Shown here one piece after another: positions 3 through 1,133 of a stretch of 1,135 nt of DNA. Under the pieces are notes generated by a model that was not told the origin of the DNA, did no database searches, and saw only the letters and a program-made list of their open reading frames with translations. How positions within the stretch are numbered: position 1 is the stretch's first letter; each line of letters starts with the position of its first letter. Source of the stretch: Naegleria gruberi (lineage: Eukaryota); the NCBI GenBank assembly GCA_000004985.1, contig GG739536.1; one strand, written 5' to 3'. Both the position numbers and the translations under genes were made by a program.

Positions 3-92
3 TACTCTCAACAACTTATAGAGATAGTGGCATCTATGTGTAAACATGATCCTAATTCAAGAATAACATCAGGAGAGATTATCAGAATTCTC
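3..92 (+). other. Protein kinase catalytic domain, extreme C-terminal portion (subdomain XI-like)
   Basis: Translation YSQQLIEIVASMCKHDPNSRITSGEIIRIL. This matches the conserved end of eukaryotic-type kinase domains: a hydrophobic helix, then C(W/K)..DP..RP(s/t)..ei...L. Only the tail is visible, so the catalytic motifs (VAIK, HRD, DFG, APE) would lie upstream of the window. Confidence 0.55.
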
Positions 93-1133
93 ACACCCTA
101 TGAAGTCAAAATAACAGAATTTGGAAGAGCAAAGAGCTTCTATACAGAAAAAGAATACGAAAAAGCACTGTTGATTTTGAATCAAATTATTGAAAGTGAC
201 CCAACAAAAAGCATTTTTCTCCATCAGAGATACCTCACATTTAAAAAATTAAAGAATTATGAAAAGGCAATTGAAGATTTGAATAGAGCTTTAGAATTGG
301 ATCCCAACAATGCAAGTTATCTGAACAGCTTGGGTGTTTGCTACAAGGAAGGAGGTTGTGTAAAAAAAGATTGGGATAAGGCTATTTCATTATTTGAAAG
401 GTCTCGCAATGGACAAGCATTTTACAATTTAGGAATAATTTACAAAACGCGTTTTTCCAAACAACCAAAGTATAAGAAGAAAGACCCTTTAATCGAAAGA
501 AGAATGAATGAAGCATTCTTATTGGGTGCTGAAAAGGATAACAAGTTATGCCAACAAGAATATGGGCTCCTTTGCTTGAATTGTAACGATTATTTGAAAG
601 CAGTGGAGTGGTTGAAAAAGTCAGACACTCCACTATCCAACACATATTTGGGAAATCTCTATATGAATGGTTCTACAACAGTACAAAAAGATCCAAGAAA
701 AGCCTTTGAATACTATTCAAAATCCAACACCATTTCATATCATGCCTATTGTTACGAAGAAGGTATTGGAACACAAAAAGACCCACAAAAAGCTTTTAAA
801 ATGTATCAAGAAAATGAAAGGTTGATGGATTGTAAACTTGGAATGGGAAGAATGTATTTTAAAGGTTGGGAGGGAACAAACCCAGACTATCAGAAATCAT
901 TCAAGTATTGCACTGAAGTATTCGAATATTGTATAAATACTAAGGACAATCAAGACTTGAAAAACGAAGCAATGTATTACTTGGCAGAAATGTACTATTA
1001 TGGGAAAGGAATACCTGAAGATGAGCTATTGCACCATACTGAAAAGGCTGCTAGTTATTACAATTTATTAGTTTTTGTGAATAAGAATGTCATGTTCAAA
1101 ATTGGAGAAATGATTTATAAGCAATCTAACCCT
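3..1133 (+). CDS. Internal fragment (5' and 3' partial) of a large protein: C-terminal end of a Ser/Thr (TKL/TK-like) protein kinase domain followed by TPR-like and Sel1-like repeats
   Basis: I translated frame 3 by hand (codons starting at nt 3) and found no TAA, TAG or TGA through nt 1133, 377 codons. In ~33% GC DNA stops are expected about every 13-14 codons; under a simple base-composition model the chance of such a run is of order 1e-12 to 1e-13 (own approximate calculation). The translation has coherent protein-like motif structure, described in the sub-features. All other frames contain frequent stops (e.g. frame 1: tag at 19-21 and 25-27, taa at 64-66). The CDS runs off both window edges, so the true start and stop are outside the window. 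Confidence 0.9.
123..314 (+). other. TPR-like helical repeats (about two units) linking the kinase tail to the Sel1-like array
   Basis: Translation GRAKSFYTEKEYEKALLILNQIIESDPTKS / IFLHQRYLTFKKLKNYEKAIEDLNRALELDPNNA. The second unit is 34 residues with the TPR-typical Y, A, L/A positions and the terminal L.DP.N motif (ALELDPNNA). The first unit ends in a similar SDPTKS. Confidence 0.5.
312..1133 (+). other. Array of ~7-8 Sel1-like repeats (SLR; TPR-related), continuing beyond the 3' window edge
   Basis: A recurring ~30-45 aa unit matches the Sel1 consensus a..LG.mY..G.GV.kD..kA..wy.kAA. Examples: SYLNSLGVCYKEGGCVKKDWDKAISLFERS (nt ~315-404); NTYLGNLYMNGSTTVQKDPRKAFEYYSKS (nt ~639-725); HAYCYEEGIGTQKDPQKAFKMYQENER (nt ~741-821); KLGMGRMYFKGWEGTNPDYQKSFKYC (nt ~834-911); AMYYLAEMYYYGKGIPEDELLHHTEKAASYY (nt ~969-1061). 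The unit at nt ~417-548 is atypical, with a basic insertion. The final unit (VMFKIGEMIYKQSNP) is truncated by the window edge. Confidence 0.65.

What the first reader, a model, noticed from the sequence alone, without database searches (positions are those of the whole stretch)
3..1133. Whole window is one uninterrupted + strand coding frame that the ORF track does not list
Frame 3 has no stop codon for 377 codons in ~33% GC DNA and translates to a motif-rich protein. The supplied six-frame track reports only an 87-aa antisense ORF, presumably because it requires an in-window stop codon. Anyone relying on the track would wrongly call this window non-coding or mis-strand it. Since the gene runs off both edges, its full length must be well over 1.1 kb. 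The kinase domain alone needs roughly 750 nt more upstream.
Basis: seen in the sequence. Interest (0 to 1): 0.6.

Follow-up and report, generated by a model that had tools for sequence, protein, structure and literature searches.

The report
Partial Naegleria kinase–TPR–Sel1 repeat gene
The whole 1135-base window is a real protein-coding stretch, already annotated in GenBank as a partial Naegleria gruberi protein, that encodes helical TPR/Sel1 repeats and probably the last 30 residues of a protein kinase domain; it is an ordinary gene fragment that the ORF lister skipped because it has no in-window stop codon.

Summary
Frame 3 (nt 3-1133, + strand) has 377 codons and no stop, while the other five frames carry 18-32 stops. 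Composition alone gives P~7e-15, and 2000 shuffles never exceeded 174 open codons. Period-3 signal beats 1000/1000 shuffles. The ORF tool omits the frame by design, because run-off ORFs are not listed.

The window is an entire 1135-bp scaffold of Naegleria gruberi. GenBank already carries a gene model on it: XP_002667972.1/EFC35228.1, 'predicted protein, partial', 351 aa, nt 36-1088.

The product has:
- two TPR motifs (aa 38-105);
- at least seven Sel1-like repeats (aa 106-377; Pfam Sel1 3e-26).

It is modelled as an alpha/alpha solenoid whose nearest solved folds are bacterial Sel1-repeat proteins.

The kinase claim is probable but not proven. Residues 1-30 match only the extreme C-terminus of Pfam Pkinase (positions 233-258 of 263; E 0.18, below threshold). 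They also match a home-made kinase C-lobe HMM better than 1000/1000 shuffles. In addition, 25 of the 149 closest relatives of the Sel1 region carry a kinase domain.

No longer contig or close orthologue could be found.

Verdict: ordinary, already annotated, low interest.

The parts
3..1133 (+). Uninterrupted coding frame of 377 codons, open at both window edges
   Evidence: No stop in the frame. Period-3 signal and codon-position bias. Pfam Sel1 3e-26 plus several TPR families. 100% identical to the N. gruberi predicted protein P0001.
36..1088 (+). Extent of the existing public gene model XP_002667972.1 / EFC35228.1 ('predicted protein, partial', 351 aa). It starts at an internal Met (codon 12) and ends just before a GT at nt 1089.
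   Evidence: The P0001 sequence equals aa 12-362 of the frame.
3..92 (+). aa 1-30: probable C-terminal end (subdomain XI, '...HDPNSRITSGEII') of a eukaryotic-type protein kinase catalytic domain. The rest of the domain is off the 5' edge.
   Evidence: The only Pfam hit of the 41-aa N-terminal fragment is Pkinase, profile positions 233-258 of 263, E 0.18. The best local alignments fall exactly on the kinase end of P0140, P0150, P0216 and P0247. A home-made HMM of 10 kinase C-lobes matches aa 1-30 at positions 115-145 of 154 with 12.0 bits, against a best of 6.7 in 1000 shuffles.
93..113 (+). aa 31-37: short linker between the kinase tail and the repeat array
   Evidence: No family match. The AF2 model runs a continuous helix through aa 23-48 at modest pLDDT of about 55-65.
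114..317 (+). aa 38-105: two TPR motifs. aa 38-71 is weak. aa 72-105 is close to consensus ('NYEKAIEDLNRALELDPNNA').
   Evidence: Per-repeat Pfam scan: TPR_6 at 17 bits for the first motif, and TPR_1 at 38.1 bits (cutoff 27.8) for the second. TPR_11 4.5e-11. Designed consensus TPR proteins in the PDB match. pLDDT 87-96.
318..413 (+). aa 106-137: first Sel1-like repeat
   Evidence: Sel1 18.2 bits, E 0.004, when scanned alone.
414..629 (+). aa 138-209: two degenerate helical repeats with a Lys-rich insertion (KQPKYKKKDP). This is the least confident part of the model.
   Evidence: No Sel1 hit when scanned alone; TPR_8 at E 0.11 only. Helical in the model, but pLDDT is 36-65 and below 50 for aa 180-193.
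630..1085 (+). aa 210-361: four Sel1 repeats (aa 210-242, 243-273, 274-317, 318-361)
   Evidence: Sel1 scores of 29.4, 29.4, 18.9 and 23.6 bits when scanned singly. Whole-protein Sel1 score is 91.3 bits against a cutoff of 30.7. pLDDT 81-96. PDB Sel1-repeat proteins 6ok3, 6ork, 8sxq and 4bwr match by sequence and by fold.
1086..1133 (+). aa 362-377: start of a further repeat (helix A, 'VMFKIGEMIYKQ'), cut by the scaffold end
   Evidence: Helix 362-375 in the model. Similarity to the helix-A segments of the other repeats falls in the top 1.2% of shuffled 14-mers (weak). No Pfam hit alone.
382..645 (-). 87-aa antisense ORF reported by the ORF track. It is a chance ORF, not a gene.
   Evidence: Listed. 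No Pfam match at E<=10. Its length is comparable to the mean longest open run in shuffles, 78 codons.

Best explanation
The window is a complete, very short, unplaced scaffold of the Naegleria gruberi nuclear genome. It lies wholly inside one exon of a protein-coding gene.

The encoded fragment runs, N to C, as follows:
- the last ~30 residues of a eukaryotic-type Ser/Thr protein kinase catalytic domain;
- a 7-residue linker;
- two TPR motifs;
- at least seven Sel1-like repeats.

The TPR and Sel1-like repeats together form one continuous alpha/alpha superhelix.

By analogy with other kinases that carry TPR or Sel1 solenoids, the solenoid is the non-catalytic protein-protein interaction arm. 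It would dock substrates or regulators, or mediate self-association or autoinhibition, while the off-window N-terminal domain phosphorylates them.

Shown: the coding status, the species and existing annotation, the TPR/Sel1 identity, and the predicted solenoid fold.
Inferred: the upstream kinase domain, the continuation beyond both edges, and the docking role.
For: Coding status: no stop in 377 codons against 18-32 stops in the other frames, P~7e-15. Period-3 power beats 1000/1000 shuffles.

Identity: 100% match to XP_002667972.1/EFC35228.1, 'predicted protein, partial [Naegleria gruberi]', on a contig of exactly 1135 bp. The window GC of 33% fits the AT-rich N. gruberi genome, given as 35% GC, Sanger-sequenced, 1,977 scaffolds in PMC9928731 Table 1.

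Repeats: Pfam Sel1 3e-26 (91 bits against a cutoff of 30.7), TPR_11 4.5e-11 and TPR_1 3e-8, with a per-repeat map.

Fold: an AF2 model built with a 14-sequence alignment has mean pLDDT 79.6 and is all helix pairs. The top Foldseek PDB hits are Sel1-repeat proteins (6ok3, LceB 8sxq, c5321 4bwr, LpnE 6deh, HcpC 1ouv) and TPR superhelices.

Kinase tail:
- The only Pfam family hit by aa 1-41 is Pkinase, at profile positions 233-258 of 263.
- A kinase C-lobe HMM built here scores aa 1-30 at 12.0 bits at the matching position, above all 1000 shuffles.
- The best Smith-Waterman alignment of aa 1-32 lands on the kinase C-terminal end in 4 of the 9 Pfam-confirmed kinase-Sel1 relatives.

Architecture precedent: in a full HMMER search with the Sel1 part, 25 of the 149 best relatives contain a kinase C-lobe. 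Nine of nine that were scanned have Pfam Pkinase plus Sel1, eight of them with the kinase N-terminal to the repeats. Named examples come from Pelomyxa schiedti, Entamoeba marina, Diversispora epigaea and a Planctomycetota MAG.
Against: The kinase match is below Pfam's threshold (11.6 bits against 31.7; E 0.18). A phmmer search of the 41-aa fragment against the PDB found no kinase. No catalytic motif (VAIK, HRD, DFG, APE) can be seen, because that sequence would lie off the scaffold.

No close paralogue or orthologue with a full-length architecture was recovered.

There is no expression evidence, so the docking role is purely by analogy.

The public gene model ends at nt 1088 just before a GT. 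A splice donor there, with nt 1089-1133 being intron, is therefore not excluded.
Confidence: 0.75

Rival explanations
1. The gene encodes a pure TPR/Sel1 repeat protein. The first 30 residues are an unrelated helical N-terminal segment that only resembles kinase subdomain XI by chance, and no kinase domain lies upstream.
For: The Pkinase match is sub-threshold (E 0.18). No PDB kinase was found by phmmer. Most relatives of the Sel1 region (124 of 149) have no detectable kinase.
Against: Pkinase is the only family hit out of 24,736, and the match sits exactly at the profile's C-terminal end while the fragment sits at the window's 5' edge. An independent C-lobe HMM beats 1000/1000 shuffles. The best local alignments coincide with the kinase ends of four relatives. 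The frame is open up to the scaffold edge with no plausible start; the first Met is codon 12, inside the motif.
Confidence: 0.2
2. The scaffold is not Naegleria nuclear DNA but a fragment from a bacterial contaminant or symbiont, or a very recent bacterial transfer. Sel1-repeat proteins and kinase-Sel1 fusions are common in bacteria, including amoeba-associated ones.
For: It is an orphan 1135-bp scaffold with no context. Many of the best-scoring relatives are bacterial or metagenomic. No other Naegleria protein appeared among the hits.
Against: A scan of one genome from each of 185,579 prokaryotic species, plus the JGI metagenomes, found only a distant 31%-identity Sel1 segment. GC of 33% fits N. 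gruberi. The kinase-tail motif and the nearest tail matches (Pelomyxa) are eukaryotic in type. Strain NEG-M is grown axenically (PMC9928731).
Confidence: 0.05
3. The window is an assembly leftover of a decaying or unexpressed gene copy (a pseudogene fragment) rather than part of a functional gene.
For: It was left unplaced in a Sanger assembly. The central repeats (aa 138-209) are degenerate.
Against: 377 codons without a stop or frameshift in 33%-GC DNA, with a retained period-3 signal and repeat consensus residues, argue for ongoing purifying selection or very recent origin.
Confidence: 0.07
4. The open frame is a chance feature of non-coding DNA.
For: None beyond the absence of an entry in the ORF list.
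Against: P~7e-15, and the shuffle maximum is 174 open codons. Pfam Sel1 3e-26. Period-3 signal. A confident solenoid model.
Confidence: 0.005

Closest known systems
Protein kinases with C-terminal Sel1-repeat arrays, e.g. Pelomyxa schiedti KAH3764441.1 and KAH3761778.1, Entamoeba marina KAL7720403.1, Diversispora epigaea RHZ72881.1, Planctomycetota MAG MCW8131077.1
   Same: They have a Pkinase domain followed by a long Sel1 or TPR-like solenoid. The window's N-terminal 30 residues align to the end of their kinase domains.
   Different: Sequence identity is only about 30-45% over local repeat stretches, so there is no orthology. In most of them several hundred residues separate the kinase from the repeats, whereas here the first TPR begins 7 residues after the kinase tail. 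The window's own kinase domain is not observable.
Bacterial Sel1-like repeat (SLR) proteins with solved structures: Oxalobacter formigenes 6ok3/6ork, Legionella LceB 8sxq and LpnE 6deh, E. coli c5321 4bwr, Helicobacter HcpC 1ouv
   Same: They share the Sel1 repeat sequence signature (6ok3 2e-11, 6ork 1.5e-10) and the predicted superhelical fold (E 3e-9 to 7e-7).
   Different: They are secreted or periplasmic bacterial proteins with no kinase. Identity is 16-20%. TM-scores are low (0.3-0.5) because the superhelix curvature differs and the model has a weak hinge at aa 180-193.
Canonical TPR proteins: consensus CTPR designs, and the OGT and SPINDLY TPR domains
   Same: aa 72-105 is a near-consensus TPR, and TPR superhelices appear among the fold hits.
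   Different: Only two of the roughly ten repeats are 34-residue TPRs. The rest have the longer Sel1 spacing.
eEF2 kinase (alpha-kinase domain plus C-terminal SEL1-like helical repeats that engage the substrate); recalled from general knowledge and not tested here
   Same: It shares the functional logic: a kinase catalytic domain tethered to a Sel1-like solenoid that mediates protein-protein contacts.
   Different: eEF2K has an atypical alpha-kinase domain. The window's tail matches the classical Pkinase profile, and no Alpha_kinase hit was seen. This is an analogy only.

Membership tests
Sel1 repeat proteins (Pfam PF08238, SLR solenoids) | Several 36-44-residue repeats matching the Sel1 profile above the curated threshold | tested here: met
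   91.3 bits against a cutoff of 30.7, E 3e-26, in 5 stretches. Single-repeat scans give 18-29 bits each for five repeats.
Sel1 repeat proteins (Pfam PF08238, SLR solenoids) | Antiparallel helix pairs stacked into a superhelix, resembling solved SLR proteins | tested here: met
   This rests on a predicted model only. AF2 mean pLDDT is 79.6, with 19 helices. The top Foldseek PDB hits are 6ok3, 8sxq, 4bwr, 6deh and 1ouv.
Tetratricopeptide repeat (TPR_1/TPR_2/TPR_11) | A 34-residue motif matching TPR profiles above threshold | tested here: met
   For aa 72-105, TPR_1 scores 38.1 bits against a cutoff of 27.8 when scanned alone. TPR_11 scores 42.7 bits against 26.8. aa 38-71 is sub-threshold at 17 bits.
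Eukaryotic-type protein kinases (Pfam PF00069) | Catalytic core motifs: the Gly-rich loop, the VAIK Lys, HRDxxxxN, DFG and APE | not testable with these tools
   These would lie upstream of nt 3. The scaffold ends there, and no longer contig or identical protein record was found.
Eukaryotic-type protein kinases (Pfam PF00069) | C-terminal subdomain XI (helix with the conserved Arg, 'DPxxR') matching the end of the Pkinase profile | tested here: inconclusive
   aa 2-27 align to profile positions 233-258 of 263 at 11.6 bits, E 0.18, below the 31.7-bit cutoff. A home-made C-lobe HMM gives 12.0 bits, above 1000/1000 shuffles. Positional agreement is seen in 4 of 9 relatives. PDB phmmer was negative.
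Kinase-Sel1 fusion architecture | Both domains on one polypeptide, with the kinase N-terminal to the repeats | tested here: inconclusive
   The Sel1 part is shown and the kinase part is inferred from its tail. The architecture is frequent among relatives (25 of 149; 9 of 9 Pfam-confirmed).
eEF2K-like alpha-kinases with SEL1-like repeats | Alpha_kinase catalytic domain | not testable with these tools
   The catalytic region is off-window. The visible tail matches Pkinase, and no Alpha_kinase hit was seen.

The most novel reading that the evidence does not exclude
The fragment belongs to a Naegleria-specific, orphan kinase whose catalytic domain abuts a hybrid TPR-to-Sel1 solenoid, with only a 7-residue linker. 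No orthologue was detected among the best-scoring hits from billions of public proteins. Its repeat arm may have been acquired from amoeba-associated bacteria and fused to a eukaryotic kinase.
Probability: 0.1. Interest if true: 0.3.

Novelty: already known. Interest (0 to 1): 0.1.

Why it matters
It matters little biologically. The window is an ordinary fragment of a repeat-containing signalling gene in a genome reported to encode 265 predicted kinases (PMC9928731), and the CDS is already in GenBank.

There are two practical points:
- An ORF lister that drops run-off ORFs will make any window lying inside a long exon look non-coding or antisense-coding, so partial ORFs should be reported.
- The public model XP_002667972.1 is trimmed to an internal Met at nt 36 and to nt 1088. 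It carries no kinase annotation. The data here suggest it is the C-terminal part of a kinase-TPR-Sel1 protein.

Tried and rejected
(1) Looking for a longer contig. The look-up of encoding contigs on P0001 found no record. The search for related loci in prokaryotic genomes and in JGI metagenomes returned only a distant Sulfurovaceae Sel1 segment at 31% identity over aa 137-283.

(2) Looking for close paralogues or orthologues:
- The word-indexed search with the full frame returned the self hit and then TPR-rich bacterial proteins.
- The same search with aa 151-377 returned only the self hit and P0097.
- With aa 1-71 it returned nothing at all, not even the self hit, which looks like a quirk of the index.

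(3) phmmer of the 41-aa N-terminus against the PDB found no kinase.

(4) A single-sequence AlphaFold model was unusable (pLDDT 44). It was replaced by an alignment-based model.

(5) Searches for RNA families, tRNAs and tandem repeats found nothing relevant.

(6) Literature searches for Naegleria Sel1 kinases found no description of this protein or family in Naegleria. Only general context was gained.

(7) The antisense 87-aa ORF was rejected as a gene.

Full report
**Observation**

Reading the window and translating nt 3-1133 on the + strand gives 377 sense codons and no stop. A recount in all six frames gives 25, 32 and 0 stops on the + strand and 26, 21 and 18 on the - strand.

At the window's composition (33.2% GC), a random codon is a stop with probability 0.083. 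The chance of 377 open codons is therefore about 7e-15. In 2000 shuffles the longest open run in any frame averaged 78 codons and never exceeded 174.

The refutation clause about periodicity also fails. Base composition depends on codon position (chi-square p = 2e-4). The period-3 Fourier power is 17.1, against a shuffle mean of 3.9 and a maximum of 13.1 in 1000 shuffles.

The ORF lister shows nothing longer than the 87-aa antisense ORF at 382-645. The antisense ORF has no family match, and its length is what chance gives here.

**Where the window comes from**

The frame is 100% identical to a 351-aa database protein whose only contig is 1135 bp long. That protein is EFC35228.1 / XP_002667972.1, 'predicted protein, partial [Naegleria gruberi]'. 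The window is therefore an entire small, unplaced scaffold of the Sanger assembly of N. gruberi NEG-M. PMC9928731 Table 1 describes that assembly as 40.9 Mb, 35% GC and 1,977 scaffolds.

The public model equals aa 12-362 of the frame, i.e. nt 36-1088. It starts at the first in-frame Met and stops just before a GT at nt 1089. The coding nature of the window is thus already on record, although the model is shorter than the open frame.

**What the protein is**

Pfam gives Sel1 at 3e-26 (91.3 bits against a cutoff of 30.7, five stretches) and a set of overlapping TPR families over aa ~40-118. Scanning each repeat alone gives this map:

| Residues | Assignment | Score |
|---|---|---|
| aa 38-71 | weak TPR | TPR_6, 17 bits |
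| aa 72-105 | near-consensus TPR | TPR_1, 38 bits |
| aa 106-137 | Sel1-like repeat | 18.2 bits |
| aa 138-209 | two degenerate helical repeats with a Lys-rich insertion | no Sel1 hit |
| aa 210-242 | Sel1 repeat | 29.4 bits |
| aa 243-273 | Sel1 repeat | 29.4 bits |
| aa 274-317 | Sel1 repeat | 18.9 bits |
| aa 318-361 | Sel1 repeat | 23.6 bits |

The last 16 residues begin another helix. That helix resembles the first helix of the preceding repeats (top 1.2% of shuffled segments; helix 362-375 in the model).

Sequence search of the PDB finds designed consensus TPR proteins and solved Sel1-repeat proteins: 6ok3 at 2e-11, 6ork, 8sxq, 4bwr, and SEL1L 5b26.

A single-sequence AlphaFold model was poor (pLDDT 44). 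With a 14-row alignment the model reaches mean pLDDT 79.6. Values above 85 cover aa 40-110 and aa 230-350. The fold is all helix pairs, with a weak hinge at aa 180-193.

Foldseek against the PDB returns Sel1-repeat proteins first (6ok3, LceB 8sxq, c5321 4bwr, LpnE 6deh, HcpC 1ouv), followed by TPR superhelices. The TPR/Sel1 solenoid identity is therefore well supported.

**The kinase claim**

The first 41 residues hit exactly one of 24,736 Pfam families. That family is Pkinase, with aa 2-27 aligned to profile positions 233-258 of 263. The score is only 11.6 bits and the E-value 0.18, well under the 31.7-bit cutoff. phmmer against the PDB finds no kinase. I looked for independent support in three ways.

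- **Architecture among relatives.** A full HMMER search of 1.84 billion representatives with the Sel1 part (aa 106-377) gave 6447 hits at E<=1e-3, and the best 149 non-self hits are long Sel1 proteins. Twelve have an HRD..N plus DFG motif. Nine of nine that were scanned have Pfam Pkinase plus Sel1, eight of them with the kinase N-terminal to the repeats. A kinase C-lobe HMM built here finds 25 of the 149 with a kinase. Named members come from Pelomyxa schiedti, Entamoeba marina, Diversispora epigaea and a Planctomycetota MAG. Kinase and Sel1-like families are also known as expanded signalling families in arbuscular mycorrhizal fungi (PMC8647823).
- **Position of local alignments.** The best Smith-Waterman alignment of aa 1-32 lands exactly on the C-terminal end of the kinase domain in 4 of the 9 Pfam-confirmed proteins. 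One example is YSQQLIEIVASMCKHDPNSRISGEII-type pairing with FPREFCNLVRSLLEYDPAKRISIMDAF in P0150. By chance this would happen in a few per cent of proteins.
- **Independent HMM.** An HMM built from ten kinase C-lobes scores aa 1-30 at 12.0 bits, at HMM positions 115-145 of 154. The best of 1000 shuffles of the fragment scores 6.7 bits.

Taken together, I rate the upstream kinase as probable (about 0.75-0.8), not shown.

**Extension and origin**

No longer sequence could be obtained. The exact-protein lookup found nothing. Scans of 185,579 prokaryotic species genomes and of the JGI metagenomes found only a 31%-identity Sel1 segment in a Sulfurovaceae MAG.

The same negative result argues against the scaffold being a bacterial contaminant. 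So do its GC content and the eukaryotic-type kinase tail. No close orthologue or paralogue appeared in any search.

**Mechanism**

The best-supported reading is the C-terminal part of a Ser/Thr kinase whose catalytic domain is followed almost directly by a TPR-to-Sel1 superhelix. Such solenoids are protein-protein interaction scaffolds.

By analogy with kinase-TPR and kinase-Sel1 proteins, and with eEF2K from general knowledge, the arm would dock substrates or regulators, or control the kinase by self-association. This step is inference, and nothing in the window tests it.

**Verdict**

The object itself is ordinary: a partial, already annotated gene made of very common domain families. Novelty is 'already known' and interest is low. 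The useful outcomes are two. First, the ORF track should report run-off ORFs. Second, the public model is trimmed and probably belongs to a kinase.

Noticed in passing
window 36-38 and 1086-1091: The public gene model XP_002667972.1 begins at an internal Met (codon 12 of the open frame), which lies inside the putative kinase subdomain XI. It ends at nt 1088, immediately before a GT. Both ends look like gene-caller conventions (first ATG, possible donor) rather than biology. The frame stays open for 11 codons upstream and 15 codons downstream.
   Followed up: partly
window 414-629 (aa 138-209): The central repeats are degenerate. They contain a Lys-rich insertion (SKQPKYKKKDP) and a Cys-containing stretch (KLCQQEYGLLCLNCND). 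They have no Sel1 Pfam hit when scanned alone, and the model's confidence is lowest here (pLDDT below 50 at aa 180-193). This region may be a hinge or a lineage-specific insertion in the solenoid.
   Followed up: partly
relatives P0121-P0269: About 17% (25 of 149) of the closest relatives of the Sel1 region carry a protein kinase domain. They come from very distant lineages: Archamoebae (Pelomyxa, Entamoeba marina), a glomeromycete fungus (Diversispora) and a Planctomycetota MAG. The kinase-Sel1 fusion is therefore recurrent across lineages.
   Followed up: partly
whole frame; No other Naegleria protein (gruberi, fowleri or lovaniensis) appeared among the listed hits. The best non-self scores come from proteins with many repeats, not from orthologues. 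Either the gene is lineage-specific and fast-evolving, or orthologues are hidden below the repeat-rich hits.
   Followed up: no
(query window 3-215): The word-indexed protein search with aa 1-71 returned one candidate and no hit at E<=10, although the database protein P0001 shares aa 12-71 identically. This looks like a limitation of the index for short queries. It is not evidence of absence.
   Followed up: no
window 382-645, minus strand: The 87-aa antisense ORF that the track reports lies opposite the degenerate repeats. It has no family match, and its length is within chance expectation for this composition.
   Followed up: yes
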